This document shows, piece after piece, positions 1-5,793 of a stretch of 5,793 nucleotides of DNA. Position 1 is the stretch's first letter. The number at the start of each line of letters is the position of its first letter. Origin of the DNA: Escherichia coli (GTDB lineage: Bacteria; Pseudomonadota; Gammaproteobacteria; Enterobacterales; Enterobacteriaceae); NCBI RefSeq assembly GCF_003334255.1, contig NZ_QOWU01000103.1. One strand, given 5' to 3'. A program made the position numbers and the translations under genes. The notes beneath the pieces are model-generated. The model did no database searches, was not told where the DNA came from, and was given only the letters and a program-made list of their open reading frames with translations.

Positions 1-77
1 GCGCCTCAGCGCGCCGTCGCGTCGATAAAGATTACGGGATGGGGCGAAACTGGTATCTGTTCGAAAAGGGCCGTAAA
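1..77. repeat. Terminal redundancy: exact copy of 5717-5793, marking the circular junction of a 5716-bp replicon
   Basis: Base-by-base comparison shows gcgcctcagcgcgccgtcgcgtcgataaagattacgggatggggcgaaactggtatctgttcgaaaagggccgtaaa at both ends. The rep reading frame is continuous across the junction. Confidence 0.95.
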
Positions 78-658: not shown

Positions 659-1105
659 TTACGCACTGTCTTTGGTGAGTAGCTCTTTCCCGCGTTTTTC
701 CCATTCCTGCCATTTTGGATGGTTGCGCGGTAGCTCTGCGATTCCTGCGAGTGCGCCTACCAGTTCGGCAGCACTAAACTTTGGTTTTCCGGTTTTGCTG
801 TCCACCAGTCCTGCCACAATCATGAGGCCTGCGGCCTTGTAGAGTTCATGATCCCGCGCCTTTCGTTCCGCCCTTGCGGCTGCCTTCCGTTCTGCCGCTA
901 TTATTGCCGTTACCCTGGCTTTTGCTGCGGCTGCTTTCTCTGCGGTTTTTTCTGCCCGTATCAGTGCGGACAACGTTTTTTCATCCGTCGTTGTTCGGTT
1001 TTTTTTCTCTGCCAGTAACACAAGTAATCTCTGCTGCTCTGACGGTGATTTCAGTCCGTTGATGTAGGCAATTTTTGCACTTAACCACTCTTCACGATTT
1101 GTCAT
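659..1105 (-). CDS. mobC: Relaxosome accessory protein, MobC (RSF1010) / TraD (Ti plasmid)-like, 148 aa from the internal ATG
   Basis: It is divergent from the relaxase across oriT, as in RSF1010. The motif ERKARDHELYKAAGLMIVAGLV resembles the MobC/TraD core (ERK..R..L...G......GL). The ATG at 1105 has the SD-like agaggt 6 nt upstream (revcomp of 1109-1114). The longer ORF start at 1192 has no SD and would run into oriT. Confidence 0.8.
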   Translation of the reverse strand: MTNREEWLSAKIAYINGLKSPSEQQRLLVLLAEKKNRTTTDEKTLSALIRAEKTAEKAAAAKARVTAIIAAERKAAARAERKARDHELYKAAGLMIVAGLVDSKTGKPKFSAAELVGALAGIAELPRNHPKWQEWEKRGKELLTKDSA

Positions 1106-1149
1106 TCTTACCTCTGCACTTTTGCCGTTAATGTGAGTTGTTATTGTGC

Positions 1150-1158
1150 ATAATATCA
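1150..1158 (-). promoter_or_regulatory. Candidate extended -10 promoter for the mobC-like gene
   Basis: The minus strand reads TGaTATTAT (TGn plus a -10 hexamer), about 45 nt upstream of the ATG at 1105. No good -35 was found. Confidence 0.3.
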
Positions 1159-1160
1159 CC

Positions 1161-1189
1161 TTGTCTGCCTGCGTGTGAGACCTTAAAAT
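1161..1189 (+). promoter_or_regulatory. Candidate sigma70 promoter for mobA
   Basis: TTGTCT (1161-1166), 17-nt spacer, TAAAAT (1184-1189). Transcription would read through oriT into mobA. Confidence 0.35.
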
Positions 1190-1253
1190 CATCCCTGATT
1201 AATTCAGGGATGCGCACTTAGACGTTTCTCTCCTTCGTCGAGAAACAGTGCGC
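1190..1253 (-). other. oriT, RSF1010/MOBQ-like, with predicted nic on the minus strand between 1213 and 1212
   Basis: An inverted repeat gtttctc (1224-1230) / gagaaac (1240-1246) has the same arm sequence as the RSF1010 oriT repeat as recalled. On the minus strand the repeat is followed by gtcTAAGTGCG|C, 11 nt to the predicted nick, compared with RSF1010 GAGAAAC-CGGTAAGTGCG|CCCT. A second hairpin follows: catccctga(1190-1198)/tcagggatg(1204-1212). Confidence 0.7.
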
Positions 1254-2362: not shown

Positions 2363-2382
2363 GCACTGGAGGTTTTTATTTT

Positions 2383-3099
2383 ATGCAATTGGATGAACAT
2401 TCAAGAAAAATTGCTGCTCTTGTTGCGTATAATGATAAACAAATAAAAGAAATGAACAGGCTAATTACTCTGCTTAATGAAAGAGTGAATGACTTAAATA
2501 CCTTTACAAGTACTCTTGAACGTGAAGGTAAAGTTGTTTCTGGAATTTCTTATTCCTTTAGGGATAGTGTGTCTAATGTTAAATTTTATATTAATAAAGG
2601 AATGGATGAGGCATCTTGTAAATTACAGAAATCAGTCTCAGATACACTAACGTCATTACTCCGCGAAAAATTATCTTTCACTCTCAATGATGTAAAGAAA
2701 GAGTGGGTTGATTTCGAGGAGCAAACAAGTAAAGAGATAAAGGAATCATTAAAGCAGACGACCAGAGAGGCCGAAGTTGCGACAGGTATAATTAGAAAAA
2801 CAATGGAGAAGTATACAGTAACAAGGATTGTCGAAAAGGTAATTGTGTTGATTGTATTATTTTTATTGCTAATGATCGCTCCTGTTTTCTATGCTGAATA
2901 TCTCAAAATGAATATTAGTTCGCTAATGGAAGAACAGAAAAAACATGAATCCATGTTAAAAGAATGGAAAGAAAAAGCTCCATTGGCCGAGTTCTCGAAG
3001 TGTGGAGATTATCGTAAAGCATGCGTGTTAGTTGATGACGAAAGCGGATATTATTTTAATGAACAATCACCAAATAAAAAATATGCCATACTGAAATAG
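2383..3099 (+). CDS. Hypothetical coiled-coil, single-pass membrane protein, 238 aa
   Basis: GGAGG (2368-2372) lies 10 nt before the ATG and 20 nt after the mobA stop. About 150 aa are heptad-rich and charged. One hydrophobic helix, VIVLIVLFLLLMIAPVFY, spans aa 153-170. The 68-aa tail has Cys207 and Cys214. The gene is AT-rich like the rest of the cargo. I recognise no family. Confidence 0.75.
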   Translation: MQLDEHSRKIAALVAYNDKQIKEMNRLITLLNERVNDLNTFTSTLEREGKVVSGISYSFRDSVSNVKFYINKGMDEASCKLQKSVSDTLTSLLREKLSFTLNDVKKEWVDFEEQTSKEIKESLKQTTREAEVATGIIRKTMEKYTVTRIVEKVIVLIVLFLLLMIAPVFYAEYLKMNISSLMEEQKKHESMLKEWKEKAPLAEFSKCGDYRKACVLVDDESGYYFNEQSPNKKYAILK

Positions 3100-3108
3100 T
3101 GTTAAGTA

Positions 3109-3142
3109 ACTCATGCCGTCTTATGACTAAGGCTGCATGAGT
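3109..3142. terminator. Hairpin between convergent genes, a possible bidirectional terminator
   Basis: actcatgc(3109-3116)/gcatgagt(3135-3142) plus an inner stem gtctta/taaggc (one G-U pair) with loop tgac. There is no clear U-tract on either strand. Confidence 0.35.
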
Positions 3143-3156
3143 ATAAAAACGGCGTT

Positions 3157-3729
3157 TCACGTAAAAATAAAATAAATACCTGTACCTAATATAAAAATGG
3201 AACTACATATGCTTATGTATCTTGAGAATGATGGCGTCAATTTATCCCTTATCGTTAAGCTAATAGCTATGTAAATAAGATCTGTTAGGAATGATATAAA
3301 TATAAATAAAACACCCAATATAAAAAAGTTTAATGTGATATTTGTATTATTATCTATAAAGGTTGGTATTAACGCAGCAAAGAAAAGATACGCCTTGGGG
3401 TTTAATAATGGTATCAAAAAAGGTTTTTGCTCTTTTCTTTGTTTGTTTTTTTTATTAATTAAACCCATTAATCCTATGTATATTAAATAGCCTCCACCGA
3501 ATATTTTTATAATGTGAAAATGTTGTTCTGTGCTGGATGTTGAGGATAACGCGAAAAGAGATATTGCCATGACGATAGTCTCGCCAATTCTTATGTATAT
3601 ACTTGTTTTTATTGATGACTTTAATCCATGTAAAAAGGCATTGTTTATAACCAATGCAACGCCAGGCCCTATTGATATAGTTTGCGATAAGGTTACGATA
3701 GCAAATGATAATAATGTTGAATATTCCAT
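3157..3729 (-). CDS. LysE/RhtB-family amino-acid (derivative) exporter, 190 aa
   Basis: Family hallmarks can be read directly: N-terminal ...SQTISIGPGVALVINNA (PGP-type motif), KIFGGGYLIYIGLMGL, and LLNPKAYLFFAALIPTFID. About six hydrophobic segments. The start lies 6 nt after the upstream gene's stop. Confidence 0.88.
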   Translation of the reverse strand: MEYSTLLSFAIVTLSQTISIGPGVALVINNAFLHGLKSSIKTSIYIRIGETIVMAISLFALSSTSSTEQHFHIIKIFGGGYLIYIGLMGLINKKNKQRKEQKPFLIPLLNPKAYLFFAALIPTFIDNNTNITLNFFILGVLFIFISFLTDLIYIAISLTIRDKLTPSFSRYISICSSIFILGTGIYFIFT

Positions 3730-3735
3730 GTTTAC

Positions 3736-4686
3736 TTACCATGATATATTTCGTGGGAGCTTTTCATATACATATTCCATAGGAATTGCAGCTTTCGGTA
3801 ATAAATTTATAAATGTTGATATGTGTTTTAGTGAATTGCTGGCGGCGATTGAGTAAAAATTTCCGCTATTCCAATATATTGATGCGTATTTAAAATGTTG
3901 TTTAATTGCGGAAAGCATATCGTCAACACTAACTTCATTCAAATTCATTGTGTTTAGTACGATTTCCTTTTTGGTGTTAATCTCATCTTTCGAGAAATAC
4001 CTTTGTTTGAATGAATAATCTTTTTGGATTTCTCTTTTTTGATATTCATCATGTTCTGAACTATGTTTTTCTGTAAATATGAAAATACCATCATTATTTA
4101 ATAGCCTTTTTACGTGGTTTATTTGCCCAGATCTGTTAGGTGGGTACATTTGAAATGTGGTGTCTTCTATTATAATATCGAATCCTTGATTAAATTGTTT
4201 AAGATTTGAATTTTTTAGTCTTTCCTCTAACAGGAAAAATGGAGTGCAAATAAAATAAGCGTTTTCACTTGAGCCATACTTAAAAAATGCATGTTCATTT
4301 TCTTTTGTTGGACTGGTTGTTAATGTTTGTATGTTTCCTTTTGATAATTCTGAAATGGTTCTTGCCATTGCGCCCTCAGCCATACCAAGACACCATGTGT
4401 TTAATTTTTTGTTTAGCGTGATTGCGTATTTTATTACTGTTGTTCCTAATCTGCACTCTTCTTCCTTGCTGTATGGTATACTGCAAAAATAATGATTAAC
4501 GAAAGGGCCGCTGTTTTTTGTGAGGTGTTTGGCAAACTTAATGTAATCATAAGAATGAAAAAGCCGATCATCTATTTCTACTAGTCTAAAAGGTTTGTGT
4601 TTTTCCCCTGATGCAGTTGATGAGAAAAATTCTGCCATGCCGTTTATTCTCGGAGCGGAAATACATTCATTTATAAAATTATTCAT
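3736..4686 (-). CDS. Divergent class I SAM-dependent methyltransferase-fold protein, CmoA (carboxy-SAM synthase)-like, 316 aa
   Basis: SD agagga lies 7 nt before the ATG. WCLGMAEGAMA aligns to CmoA motif I YDLGCSLGAAT, and IQTLTTSP aligns to IIAIDNSP. FDIIIEDTTFQMY...LLNNDGIFIFTEK aligns to ...LNPGGALVLSEK. The C-terminal FSKDEINTKKEIVLNTM...SVDD...NSGNFYSIAA aligns to CmoA YSELEISQKRSMLENVM...SVET...QCFNFGSLVA. The CmoA sequence was recalled from memory. Confidence 0.8.
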   Translation of the reverse strand: MNNFINECISAPRINGMAEFFSSTASGEKHKPFRLVEIDDRLFHSYDYIKFAKHLTKNSGPFVNHYFCSIPYSKEEECRLGTTVIKYAITLNKKLNTWCLGMAEGAMARTISELSKGNIQTLTTSPTKENEHAFFKYGSSENAYFICTPFFLLEERLKNSNLKQFNQGFDIIIEDTTFQMYPPNRSGQINHVKRLLNNDGIFIFTEKHSSEHDEYQKREIQKDYSFKQRYFSKDEINTKKEIVLNTMNLNEVSVDDMLSAIKQHFKYASIYWNSGNFYSIAASNSLKHISTFINLLPKAAIPMEYVYEKLPRNISW

Positions 4687-4787
4687 TTTCCTATCCTCTG
4701 GTTTGATTTTTGGAATTTGTTGTTATGACTCTTCAATGCTAATTCTCTTGTAAGCTTTTTTACACGCCATAAACACGATTATGATGT

Positions 4788-4814
4788 TTTATATTGTCGA
4801 TATTTCGTTGTCCA
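4788..4814 (-). promoter_or_regulatory. Candidate promoter of the CmoA-like/LysE operon
   Basis: The minus strand reads TGGACA (4814-4809), 15-nt spacer, TATAAA (4793-4788). The alternative is a 17-nt spacer to TAAAAC. The spacing is suboptimal, and the leader would be about 100 nt. Confidence 0.25.
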
Positions 4815-4937
4815 GACTGGATATGTTTGGAAATTTGTTTTCATGCGGGTTAGTTCAGCTGGCTTTCTGGATGAGAAAGTTTGCTGTTTTGACCAGTTCG
4901 CGCTTCTGAAGGGGTGAAACCGATCATTAATCGCTTT

Positions 4938-4955
4938 TGTGCATAGTTATGCAGG
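4938..4955 (+). promoter_or_regulatory. ARG-box-like palindrome, a putative ArgR accessory site of the cer-like locus
   Basis: tgTGCATAgtTATGCAgg is a perfect 6-bp palindrome. It resembles the ColE1 cer box TTGCATAGGTATTCATA (recalled) and lies 102 bp upstream of the XerC arm. Confidence 0.45.
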
Positions 4956-5055
4956 CCCCTAAAAACGATTCTGACGCGTTTTTTGTGTTTTCCCTAGGTT
5001 TATCTTGTCTTTTTGAGTTTTTTGCGTCAGAAAGCGATTGAGAGCGTTTTAGAGG

Positions 5056-5083
5056 GTACGTACAAGAGGAGTTATGGTAAATG
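5056..5083 (+). other. cer-like Xer recombination core site (XerC arm, 6-bp central region, XerD arm)
   Basis: GGTACGTACAA-gaggag-TTATGGTAAAT compares with ColE1 cer GGTGCGTACAA-TTAAGGGA-TTATGGTAAAT. The XerD arm is identical and the XerC arm matches 10/11. The preceding gcgttttag also matches the cer flank as recalled. Confidence 0.78.
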
Positions 5084-5103
5084 GGTCTGGTTTTCGGGAA
5101 GGA

Positions 5104-5132
5104 TCGACAGGATTTGCCGTTGGGTGTAGTGT
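5104..5132 (+). promoter_or_regulatory. Candidate rep promoter
   Basis: TCGACA (5104-5109), 17-nt spacer, TAGTGT (5127-5132). This gives a structured leader of about 100 nt before the rep ATG at 5239. Confidence 0.4.
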
Positions 5133-5140
5133 AACCAACT

Positions 5141-5262
5141 GAAAAACAAACGCCCCTGAAATTCGTGCCGATCCGCCAAGACTGTCACGAAAATTCAAGG
5201 GGCGTGTGGGTCGTAACACACGGAGGAAATCCTAACACATGAGCGCCGTACTTCAACTCTTC
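5141..5262 (-). ncRNA. Antisense copy-number control RNA (ColE2 RNA I-like); the 5' end is approximate
   Basis: The minus strand carries a long hairpin (5206-5150, GC-rich base acgcccct/aggggcgt, 19-nt apical loop) followed by uuuguuuuu (5149-5141), a canonical intrinsic terminator. Candidate promoter TTCGTA (5297-5292), 17-nt spacer, TAATTT (5274-5269). The predicted length of about 120 nt is compatible with the reported RNA I of about 115 nt. Confidence 0.5.
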
Positions 5263-5793
5263 AGGGAAAAATTACCGCACAAACCGTACTGTACGAACGA
5301 TTTCACGTACGGCGTTCGCATTCTACCGAAAGATATCGCCATCCTTGCCCGTTTCATCCAGCAGAACCAGCCACATGCGCAGCACTGGCTGGCCTTTGAC
5401 GTTGACCGGACGGGGGCAGCGATCGACTGGAGCGACCGGAACTGTCCGGCCCCGAACATCACCGTAAAAAATCCACGTAACGGGCACGCGCATCTGCTCT
5501 ACGCGCTCACTCTTCCGGTGAGAACCGCGCCGGATGCATCGGCTTCGGCGCTCAAATACGCTGCCGTGATTGAGCGTGCGCTGTGTGAAAAACTGGGCGC
5601 GGATGTGAACTACAGCGGCCTGATCTGCAAAAATCCGTTCCACCAGGAATGGCAGGTGGTGGAATGGCGTCGGGAACTCTATACCCTCGACGAACTGGCG
5701 GATTATCTTGATTTGAGCGCCTCAGCGCGCCGTCGCGTCGATAAAGATTACGGGATGGGGCGAAACTGGTATCTGTTCGAAAAGGGCCGTAAA
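5239..5793 (+). CDS. rep: ColE2-type replication initiator/primase Rep, N-terminal part (185 codons, open to the window end, continues at base 78 via the junction)
   Basis: My translation has no stop codon: MSAVLQLFREKLPHKPYCTNDFTYGVRILPKDIAILARFIQQNQPHAQHWLAFDVDRTGAAIDW...NGHAHLLYAL... It contains a primase-type acidic DVD motif and a GHAHLLY motif, and matches my memory of the ColE2/ColE3 Rep N-terminus. Confidence 0.92.
   Translation, partial: MSAVLQLFREKLPHKPYCTNDFTYGVRILPKDIAILARFIQQNQPHAQHWLAFDVDRTGAAIDWSDRNCPAPNITVKNPRNGHAHLLYALTLPVRTAPDASASALKYAAVIERALCEKLGADVNYSGLICKNPFHQEWQVVEWRRELYTLDELADYLDLSASARRRVDKDYGMGRNWYLFEKGRK
5717..5793. repeat. Second copy of the terminal redundancy (identical to 1-77)
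   Basis: Exact 77/77 identity to the window start. Confidence 0.95.

What the first reader, a model, noticed from the sequence alone, without database searches (positions are those of the whole stretch)
3157..4686. Tightly coupled operon: CmoA-like SAM enzyme plus LysE/RhtB exporter, a candidate small-molecule synthesis and export pair
The two genes are on the same strand, separated by 6 nt (stop 3736-3738, next ATG 3729), and share one upstream region. This implies co-expression and possibly translational coupling. LysE/RhtB-family proteins export amino acids and derivatives such as lysine, arginine, threonine, homoserine and homoserine lactone, and cysteine/O-acetylserine. CmoA-type enzymes act on SAM itself, making carboxy-SAM from prephenate. 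A SAM-utilising enzyme paired with an exporter of amino-acid-like molecules suggests that a SAM-derived or methylated amino-acid metabolite is made and pumped out. Alternatively, a toxic SAM breakdown product such as homoserine lactone is expelled. The product could serve as an antimetabolite or bacteriocin surrogate, a signal, or a SAM-depleting defence with self-protection. All of these functional readings are inference.
Basis: inference. Interest (0 to 1): 0.8.

Follow-up and report, generated by a model that had tools for sequence, protein, structure and literature searches.

The report
Uncharacterised SAM-type enzyme plus amino-acid exporter
A small E. coli plasmid carries a tightly linked gene pair, an uncharacterised relative of the carboxy-SAM synthase CmoA followed by a LysE/RhtB-type amino-acid exporter, that has been inherited as a unit across distant bacteria and most likely makes and pumps out a small amino-acid-like compound of unknown identity.

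Summary
On the minus strand, a 316-aa gene (4686-3736) ends in TAA. Six bases later the ATG of a 190-aa LysE-family gene (3729-3157) begins. The window is a complete 5716-bp mobilisable E. coli plasmid, and the pair sits in its low-GC cargo.

The pairing is real. LysE lies directly downstream in 32 loci from Enterobacterales, Rhizobiales and Firmicutes. The two proteins co-diverge (r 0.95) and are under purifying selection. Other relatives sit beside or are fused to MFS or EamA exporters.

Relatives also associate with amino-acid-activating ligases: a LysRS fusion, an AMP-binding fusion and a BshC-like partner. GNAT acetyltransferases and LuxR/AraC regulators also recur nearby. The domain is embedded in giant phage 'polyvalent' proteins.

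Best reading: a minimal synthesis-and-export cassette for an amino-acid-like metabolite. The product and chemistry are not established. I found no literature on the family.

The parts
3736..4686 (-). 316-aa enzyme gene. It belongs to an uncharacterised branch of the CmoA superfamily (class I SAM-methyltransferase fold) and is the first gene of the operon.
3730..3735 (-). 6-nt spacer (gtaaac) between the TAA of the enzyme gene and the ATG of the exporter gene. It leaves no room for an independent promoter, and the Shine-Dalgarno match is only weak.
   Evidence: Sequence. In homologous pairs the junction ranges from a 28-nt overlap to a gap of about 25 nt, often a 4-nt overlap. This is consistent with co-translation or translational coupling, which is an inference.
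3157..3729 (-). 190-aa LysE/RhtB-family translocator gene, the second gene of the operon.
   Evidence: PF01810 LysE scores 69.8 bits (cut-off 25.6). The best NCBIfam models are homoserine/threonine efflux, LeuE and RhtB, all below their equivalog cut-offs. It has six hydrophobic segments. RefSeq annotates it 'LysE family translocator'. dN/dS is 0.18. It co-diverges with the enzyme.
3109..3142 (.). Hairpin between the convergent LysE gene and the 238-aa ORF. It is a candidate bidirectional terminator that would close the operon.
   Evidence: An RNA fold of 3162-3092 (minus strand) gives -17.7 kcal/mol, z -3.15, with 0 of 200 shuffles as stable. The consensus terminator scan did not call it.
4687..5238 (.). 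The only upstream intergenic region. It presumably holds the operon promoter and is shared divergently with the rep gene, which starts at about 5239 on the plus strand.
   Evidence: Gene map from the identical record NZ_AP022820.1, mapped onto window coordinates. No consensus-grade minus-strand promoter was found here, so the promoter position is not established.

Best explanation
The pair is a minimal 'make-and-export' cassette carried as cargo on a small mobilisable plasmid.

The 316-aa protein is a soluble enzyme with the class I SAM-methyltransferase fold. It belongs to a previously undescribed sister branch of the carboxy-SAM synthase CmoA. It converts ubiquitous precursors (SAM, with or without a common metabolite) into a small amino-acid-like product. 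The LysE/RhtB-type exporter is translated from the same message, 6 nt downstream. It pumps that product, or a toxic by-product, out of the cell.

Shown here:
- the operon anatomy;
- the fold and remote homology;
- the exporter family;
- purifying selection on both genes;
- ancient co-inheritance of enzyme and exporter;
- recurrent replacement of LysE by MFS or EamA exporters;
- recurrent association with amino-acid-activating ligases and GNAT acetyltransferases.

Inferred:
- that SAM is the substrate;
- that the exported molecule is the enzyme's product;
- the ecological role (competition through an antimetabolite, or signalling).

My favoured chemistry has about 0.25-0.3 probability on its own. 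In it, the enzyme uses the 3-amino-3-carboxypropyl part of SAM rather than the methyl group. It would release methylthioadenosine and a C4 amino-acid derivative of the homoserine-lactone, azetidine or diaminobutyrate type. This single reaction would fit every context in which the domain occurs:
- RhtB-like exporters;
- ligases and GNATs that act on a free amine;
- LuxR regulators with autoinducer-binding domains;
- fusion to nicotianamine synthase;
- an EctC-like neighbour;
- injected phage proteins, where consuming SAM would blunt SAM-dependent restriction.
For: Anatomy: TAA, 6 nt, ATG, with one upstream region.

Enzyme:
- The model has pLDDT 94.5.
- hhalign to E. coli CmoA gives 88% probability.
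- The equivalents of Y39, G64, Q136, K198 and the C-terminal NF motif are retained, together with family-wide invariant H65, E174, R185, K207, E219, K222, K227, K239, W272 and N276.

Exporter: PF01810.

Linkage to exporters:
- LysE lies directly downstream in Citrobacter, Pectobacterium, Niallia, Blautia, Ciceribacter and metagenomes.
- Enzyme and exporter co-diverge at r 0.95.
- An MFS gene overlaps the enzyme gene's stop codon in 10 loci.
- A divergent AraC-MFS unit is present in 69 of 80 genome loci.
- Of 45 distinct contexts with enough flank, 36 have a LysE or a large polytopic protein within 3 kb.
- An EamA-enzyme fusion occurs in Chromera.
- MFS is in the Streptomyces operon, and an ABC exporter lies next to the LysRS fusion.

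Pathway partners:
- class II LysRS fusion and AMP-binding fusion;
- GNAT next to the pair in Citrobacter and in at least 15 alphaproteobacterial loci;
- NAS fusion;
- EctC-like cupin.

Selection: dN/dS is 0.08-0.18.
Against: - No product, substrate or activity has been measured.
- The exporter-linked subfamility has lost three canonical SAM-contact acids. The CmoA D62, D89 and D117 equivalents are C/T, T/S and P. SAM binding is therefore not assured. The phage versions keep the first two.
- Azetidine-synthase signature motifs are absent in 0 of 43 sequences.
- No SAM-lyase, LuxI or spermidine-synthase family reaches threshold.
- A large transporter within 3 kb is not rare by chance. Only the LysE adjacency and the conserved MFS cluster carry real weight.
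- Natural 4959-bp deletion derivatives keep LysE but have lost the enzyme. The exporter is therefore not merely an appendage of the enzyme, and the enzyme is dispensable for the plasmid.
- The module is rare: 24 of 5426 complete E. coli genomes.
Confidence: 0.55

Rival explanations
1. Ordinary methyl transfer. The enzyme is a small-molecule methyltransferase that methylates a common amino acid, for example lysine, homoserine or threonine. LysE exports the N- or O-methylated amino acid and SAH is the co-product.
For: It has the class I methyltransferase fold, and every structural neighbour other than CmoA is a methyltransferase. There are weak Methyltransf_31 and Methyltransf_23 hits here and in relatives. 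RefSeq names the rhizobial relatives 'class I SAM-dependent methyltransferase'. The LysRS fusion and the LysE exporter both point to a basic amino acid.
Against: About 30 polar residues outside the cofactor motifs are invariant across very different genomic contexts, including phage injected proteins. That argues for one common substrate rather than varied methyl acceptors. Free-amino-acid methylation gives no obvious benefit in an injected phage protein. The nearest relative, CmoA, is itself not a methyltransferase.
Confidence: 0.22
2. Establishment or anti-restriction function. The enzyme consumes SAM in a newly entered host and so weakens SAM-dependent restriction (type I/III R-M, BREX), as phage SAM lyases do. 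LysE only removes the toxic breakdown product.
For: The same domain is embedded in giant phage or conjugative 'polyvalent' proteins that carry ART-PolyVal, LPD22, LPD38 and GGDEF domains. One of these is encoded beside a capsid gene. The gene is carried on mobilisable and conjugative plasmids and next to relaxase or tra genes. The literature raises SAM depletion by phage CmoA as an open question.
Against: Many copies are chromosomal or lie in regulated clusters with AraC or LuxR, a ligase, a GNAT and an exporter. These look like metabolite pathways. There is no PADLOC or anti-defence family match. Constitutive SAM drain would be costly to a resident plasmid.
Confidence: 0.1
3. A genuine carboxy-SAM (or similar SAM-analogue) synthase, working like CmoA, TglE or MccS, that supplies a modified cofactor to a transferase encoded elsewhere.
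For: CmoA is the best fold and profile match. The equivalents of K198, Q136, the SEK motif and the NF motif are shared. Association with AMP-forming ligases recalls the phage CmoA-CmoX-CmoY system.
Against: The Arg199 equivalent, the residue that binds the carboxylate of carboxy-SAM, is not conserved. TIGR00740 scores 27.5 bits against a cut-off of 193. No CmoB-like gene is found in the window or in 182 related loci. A cofactor would not need an amino-acid exporter.
Confidence: 0.07
4. No shared pathway. The enzyme acts on a macromolecule (tRNA, protein or DNA) and the LysE gene is an independent amino-acid efflux gene that merely travels with it.
For: The superfamily's founding member serves tRNA modification. 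A LysRS fusion exists. phrog_4752 is labelled 'tRNA methyltransferase'. Deletion plasmids keep LysE alone.
Against: Co-divergence at r 0.95 extends down to 40% and 25% identity across phyla, with overlapping or nearly abutting genes. Three unrelated exporter families occupy the same position or are fused to the enzyme.
Confidence: 0.06

Closest known systems
CmoA (carboxy-S-adenosyl-L-methionine synthase; TIGR00740 / PDB 4GEK) and its homologues TglE, MccS and phage SpCmoA
   Different: - Identity is 16%.
- It has an extra conserved N-terminal segment of about 60 residues.
- The Arg199 equivalent is variable.
- The D62, D89 and D117 equivalents are lost in this subfamily.
- It has family-specific invariant H65, E174, E219, K222 and W272.
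- It has no carboxymethyl-transferase partner.
- It is partnered with exporters instead.
LysE/RhtB amino-acid exporters (LysE, ArgO, RhtB, RhtC, LeuE, EamB)
   Same: It matches Pfam PF01810 over the full length and has six hydrophobic segments and a similar size. Its best models are homoserine/threonine, leucine and homoserine-lactone efflux proteins.
   Different: It scores below every equivalog cut-off, so its substrate cannot be assigned. It is 15-20 residues shorter in the central loop than its cognates in other genomes. It forms a lineage that co-evolves with the enzyme.
Single-enzyme SAM-cleaving amino-acid synthases with a methyltransferase fold (azetidine-2-carboxylate synthases AzeJ/VioH) and phage SAM lyases
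   Same: They follow the same logic: one SAM-utilising enzyme yields a non-proteinogenic amino acid plus MTA from SAM alone. AzeJ also has a degenerate glycine motif. SAM lyase gives homoserine lactone, which is a known RhtB substrate (my own knowledge).
Small bacteriocin/microcin plasmids (toxin gene plus export or immunity gene on a ColE-type mobilisable replicon)
   Same: The plasmid is small, mobilisable and ColE2-like, with a MOBQ relaxase. Its only cargo is a low-GC block that includes a producer enzyme and an exporter able to double as self-protection.
   Different: There is no peptide toxin, lysis gene or immunity protein. The putative product would be a small metabolite. No inhibitory activity has been shown.

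Membership tests
CmoA, carboxy-SAM synthase | Score above the curated family threshold (TIGR00740 / NF011995) | tested here: not met
   27.5 bits against a cut-off of 193.3, and 18.6 bits against 285. Only the C-terminal half aligns.
CmoA, carboxy-SAM synthase | CmoA-type fold: Rossmann core plus C-terminal lid | tested here: met
   [not shown]
CmoA, carboxy-SAM synthase | Conserved Arg199 that salt-bridges the carboxylate of carboxy-SAM | tested here: not met
   hhalign places Lys240 at this position. The column holds K, R, E, Q or S across 43 homologues, whereas the neighbouring K198 equivalent (K239) is invariant. This rests on a sequence alignment, not a superposition.
CmoA, carboxy-SAM synthase | Adjacent or co-occurring carboxymethyl transferase (CmoB, TglF or CmoX) | tested here: not met
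   tblastn with E. coli CmoB finds nothing in the window or in 182 related loci. The host chromosome does have cmoB.
Class I SAM-dependent methyltransferase | Seven-stranded Rossmann-like fold | tested here: met
   The secondary-structure order, and more than 400 PDB methyltransferase matches at E<=1e-3.
Class I SAM-dependent methyltransferase | Motif I (D/E-x-G-x-G-x-G) and an acidic residue at the end of strand 2 that binds the SAM ribose | tested here: not met
   Motif I reads C99-L-G-M-A-E-G. The end of strand 2 reads L-T123-T124-S-P. The phage subfamily keeps D-I-G-A-S-E-G and L-D-P-N. All Pfam methyltransferase hits are below threshold.
Class I SAM-dependent methyltransferase | Binds SAM and produces SAH | not testable with these tools
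   Needs binding and turnover assays.
LysE/RhtB translocator family | Pfam PF01810 above the gathering score over the full length, with about six transmembrane segments | tested here: met
   69.8 bits against 25.6, covering residues 17-188 of 190. There are six hydrophobic segments.
LysE/RhtB translocator family | Assignment to a substrate-defined equivalog (RhtB, RhtC, LeuE, EamB or LysE) | tested here: not met
   All score below their cut-offs: 61 vs 184, 50 vs 165, 42 vs 209, 21 vs 288, 20 vs 193 and 17 vs 214.
Azetidine-2-carboxylate synthase (AzeJ/VioH) | Signature motifs FY, PFNxxGN and RxxYYxxC | tested here: not met
   Motifs taken from PMC11794875. They occur in 0 of 43 family sequences.
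Known anti-phage defence or anti-defence families | Match to a PADLOC model | tested here: not met
   There is only a 15-bit partial hit to a methylase domain (mad2). The exporter has no hit.
Conserved two-gene operon (functional pair) | Adjacency and co-evolution retained across distant taxa | tested here: met
   32 loci in 15 enzyme clusters have LysE directly downstream. Co-divergence is r 0.95 with a Mantel test of 0/2000.

The most novel reading that the evidence does not exclude
The 316-aa protein founds a new class of SAM-consuming enzymes. These would release or transfer the aminocarboxypropyl part of SAM from a CmoA-like scaffold, and would be used in three arenas:
- an exported amino-acid antimetabolite or signal from small enterobacterial plasmids, paired with an RhtB-like pump;
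- a LuxR-linked, ligase- and GNAT-tailored exported compound encoded next to the transfer genes of rhizobial and agrobacterial conjugative plasmids, possibly a non-LuxI route to a homoserine-lactone-type signal;
- SAM depletion by proteins that phages inject with their DNA.
Probability: 0.15. Interest if true: 0.85.

Novelty: new variant of a known kind. Interest (0 to 1): 0.62.

Why it matters
The enzyme family is sizeable: 613 representative clusters at 50% identity. It spans bacteria, phages and at least one alga, and it has no curated family, no structure and no literature that I could find.

Its invariant active-site residues differ from those of CmoA, so the chemistry may be new. Its two-gene form on a 5.7-kb E. 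coli plasmid is about the simplest experimental handle one could want: clone 1.5 kb, then compare supernatants and SAM, MTA and SAH levels.

A result would at once annotate hundreds of plasmid genes in rhizobia and agrobacteria that sit beside conjugation genes and LuxR regulators. It would also annotate a recurrent domain of phage polyvalent proteins. If the product is an antimetabolite or a signal, it is a plasmid-borne competition or communication trait circulating in human-gut E. coli and Salmonella.

Tried and rejected
- Curated libraries (Pfam, NCBIfam, PADLOC and PHROGs) gave no family-level assignment for the enzyme. They gave nothing at all for the 238-aa neighbour.
- Rfam found no RNA family in the window.
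- The consensus promoter scan gave no convincing minus-strand promoter upstream of the operon, and it found no more sites than shuffled sequence does.
- The azetidine-synthase idea was rejected on signature motifs.
- Orthology to CmoA was rejected on Arg199, the family score and the missing CmoB partner.
- I tested whether the 238-aa ORF belongs to the module. It is absent next to every homologue outside this plasmid lineage.
- I tested whether the 470-aa rhizobial partner is the same domain as the extra 500 residues of fusion proteins P0085 and P0090. There is no detectable similarity.
- The AlphaFold-database fold library was unavailable.
- Literature searches by accession, by gene combination and by LuxR-solo surveys found nothing on this family. 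One search was wasted because 'lyse' matched 'lysergic'.
- The polyvalent-protein paper describes DNA adenine methylases but not this domain.
Full report
**What the window is.** Bases 1-77 are repeated exactly at 5717-5793. The whole window is 100% identical to the 5716-bp circular plasmid JE86-ST05_p5 of E. coli. There are about 30 near-identical or 92-97% identical plasmids in E. coli and Salmonella.

The backbone consists of:
- a rep gene that crosses the window ends (about 5239 to 452);
- a TraD-like gene;
- a MobA/MobL (MOBQ) relaxase.

The backbone has 44-60% G+C. The block 2380-4800 has 28-37% G+C and holds three genes:
- a 238-aa ORF (2383-3099, plus strand);
- the LysE gene, on the minus strand;
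- the 316-aa gene, on the minus strand.

**Check of the observation.** The ORF table and the sequence confirm the anatomy. The 316-aa gene runs 4686-3736 and ends in TAA (3738-3736). Six bases follow (gtaaac), and then comes the ATG at 3729 of the 190-aa gene, which ends at 3157. A GGATAGG Shine-Dalgarno sequence precedes the first gene, whereas the second has only a weak one. The 6-nt gap leaves no room for a promoter. The only upstream intergenic DNA is 4687-5238, shared divergently with rep. A stable hairpin (3109-3142; -17.7 kcal/mol, z -3.15) lies between the end of LysE and the convergent 238-aa ORF. Co-transcription and translational coupling are therefore well-founded inferences, although no promoter was located.

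**The exporter.** The 190-aa protein matches Pfam LysE (PF01810) over its whole length, at 69.8 bits against a cut-off of 25.6. It has six hydrophobic segments. Its nearest curated models are homoserine/threonine efflux, LeuE and RhtB, all far below their equivalog cut-offs. It is a LysE/RhtB-family translocator of unassigned substrate.

**The enzyme.** No Pfam or NCBIfam model reaches threshold. The best are sub-threshold hits to Spermine_synth and Methyltransf_31, and to the C-terminal half of CmoA. With an alignment of 43 homologues, AlphaFold2 gives a confident model (pLDDT 94.5, pTM 0.93).

Several results tie it to CmoA:
- Foldseek against the PDB ranks CmoA and YecO first.
- Profile-profile alignment to E. 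coli CmoA gives 88% probability.
- A PHROG of phage CmoA-like proteins matches at 2e-11.

The residues that define CmoA do not all carry over. I used the contacts listed for the CmoA crystal structure and checked the numbering against the K-12 sequence.
- Retained: the equivalents of Y39, G64, T134, Q136, K198 and the C-terminal NF motif.
- Lost: D62, D89 and D117 are C99, T123 and about P149.
- Not conserved: Arg199, which binds the carboxylate of carboxy-SAM. It is Lys240 here and E, Q or S in relatives.
- No CmoB-like transferase occurs in the window or in 182 related loci.

I therefore do not file it as a CmoA. The azetidine-synthase signature motifs are also absent.

The family has its own invariant set: H65, E174, R185, K207, E219, K222, K227, K239, W272 and N276. 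This set is kept from enterobacterial plasmids to phage proteins. That argues for one conserved reaction on one common substrate.

**Is the pairing conserved?** Yes.
- Look-ups of individual homologues show a LysE gene immediately downstream in Citrobacter werkmanii (inside a mobilisable island), Pectobacterium brasiliense (chromosome), Niallia and Blautia.
- Across 181 loci from genome and metagenome scans, 176 family genes were found. LysE lies directly downstream, between a 28-nt overlap and a gap of about 25 nt, in 32 of them. These represent 15 enzyme clusters at 80% identity.
- Enzyme and exporter identities co-vary (Pearson 0.95; Mantel 0/2000), down to 40% and 25% identity.
- Both genes are under purifying selection, with dN/dS of 0.08 and 0.18.

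Where LysE is absent, another exporter usually stands in:
- An MFS gene overlaps the enzyme's stop codon in 10 loci.
- A divergent AraC-MFS unit is present in 69 of 80 genome loci, mostly Rhizobiales.
- An EamA-enzyme fusion occurs in the alga Chromera velia.
- MFS is in a Streptomyces operon.
- An ABC exporter lies beside a LysRS fusion.

Of 45 distinct contexts with at least 2.5 kb on both sides, 36 have a LysE or a large polytopic protein within 3 kb. That last figure alone is weak, because such genes are common. The positional conservation is what counts.

**Other partners.** A profile search of 1.84 billion representatives finds 613 relatives. These include fusions to:
- a class II lysyl-tRNA synthetase;
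- an AMP-binding adenylating enzyme;
- a nicotianamine-synthase domain;
- by eye only, a sulfotransferase-like P-loop domain.

One recurrent operon reads LuxR (with an autoinducer-binding domain), enzyme, (MFS), ligase, GNAT. It sits directly after traA-F-B-H on Agrobacterium vitis and Phyllobacterium plasmids. Citrobacter has a RimL-type GNAT just upstream of the pair. The family is on 204 PLSDB plasmids, 172 of them rhizobial or agrobacterial.

The whole domain is also embedded in 2000-5600-aa proteins that carry ART-PolyVal, LPD22, LPD38 and GGDEF domains. One of these is encoded next to a phage capsid gene. These are the 'polyvalent' proteins thought to be injected with invading DNA. Those versions keep the canonical motif I aspartate and the strand-2 aspartate.

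**Interpretation.** The weight of evidence favours a biosynthesis-and-export cassette: one enzyme acting on ubiquitous precursors, and one amino-acid-type pump. The ligases, GNATs and regulators found with relatives are what one expects around a small amine- or carboxylate-bearing metabolite that is tailored, detoxified and secreted.

The chemistry is open. I favour use of the aminocarboxypropyl part of SAM, at a probability of about 0.25-0.3, because a SAM-only or SAM-centred reaction explains several things together:
- the invariant active site across contexts;
- RhtB-like pumps;
- amine-acylating partners;
- the NAS fusion;
- the EctC-like neighbour;
- a role in injected phage proteins.

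Plain methyl transfer is nearly as likely. A CmoA-type cofactor synthase is unlikely. SAM use itself is inferred, and the loss of three SAM-contact acids is a real caveat.

**Prevalence and stability.** The module is in 24 of 5426 complete E. coli genomes, always on plasmids. Natural 4959-bp derivatives have lost most of the enzyme gene but keep LysE and the 238-aa ORF. The 238-aa ORF occurs only in this plasmid lineage, on 33 plasmids, and is not found beside homologues elsewhere.

**Novelty.** I found no paper on the family. I rate it a new variant of a known kind: a SAM-fold enzyme plus exporter cassette built on an undescribed CmoA-superfamily branch. There is a modest chance of new chemistry.

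Noticed in passing
window 1-77 and 5717-5793: An exact 77-nt repeat with 5716-nt spacing. The window is a complete circular 5716-bp MOBQ mobilisable plasmid read slightly more than once round. It is identical to NZ_AP022820.1.
   Followed up: yes
window 2383-3099 (+): A 238-aa ORF in the same low-GC block, convergent with LysE. It has one strongly hydrophobic segment near residue 153-175. It has no significant Pfam, NCBIfam, PHROG or PADLOC match. It occurs only on 33 E. coli and Salmonella plasmids of this lineage and never beside enzyme homologues elsewhere. Its function is unknown.
   Followed up: partly
window 2380-4800 versus the rest: G+C drops from 44-60% in the backbone to 28-37% in the cargo block. 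This suggests the three cargo genes were acquired from a low-GC donor.
   Followed up: no
L100 (NZ_JBMIQC020000005.1, 4959 bp) and similar plasmids: Natural deletion derivatives retain LysE and the 238-aa ORF but have lost all but about 160 nt of the enzyme gene.
   Followed up: partly
L098 8661-20117 (protein P0150); also proteins P0155, P0160, P0174: The whole enzyme domain is embedded in 2000-5600-aa phage 'polyvalent' proteins that carry ART-PolyVal, LPD22, LPD38, GGDEF and DUF7178 domains. P0150 is encoded next to a capsid gene. These copies keep the canonical DIGASEG and LDPN SAM motifs that the plasmid copy has lost.
   Followed up: partly
L013 7119-11100; L183 6999-11116 (Agrobacterium vitis F2/5 plasmid): A recurrent operon of LuxR (autoinducer-binding domain), enzyme homologue, 470-aa ligase-like protein and GNAT lies directly downstream of traA-traF-traB-traH on conjugative plasmids. 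Some loci insert an MFS gene. I did not check whether these plasmids also have a LuxI-type traI.
   Followed up: partly
[not shown]
   Followed up: yes
proteins P0078, P0127, P0156, P0107, P0087: The enzyme domain is fused to class II LysRS, to an AMP-binding enzyme (Streptomyces, in an operon with an EctC-like cupin, an acyl-CoA-dehydrogenase-like protein and MFS), to nicotianamine synthase, to an EamA transporter (Chromera velia), and to a P-loop domain that looks sulfotransferase-like by eye.
   Followed up: partly
L011 831-6708 (mouse-gut Blautia contig): The enzyme-LysE pair lies immediately after an agr-like quorum-sensing set: a LytTR regulator, a histidine kinase, a 44-aa ORF and AgrB.
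   Followed up: no
window 659-1192 (-): The TraD-like ORF is 177 aa as the longest ORF, but RefSeq annotates it as 148 aa (window 659-1105). The start codon is uncertain.
   Followed up: no
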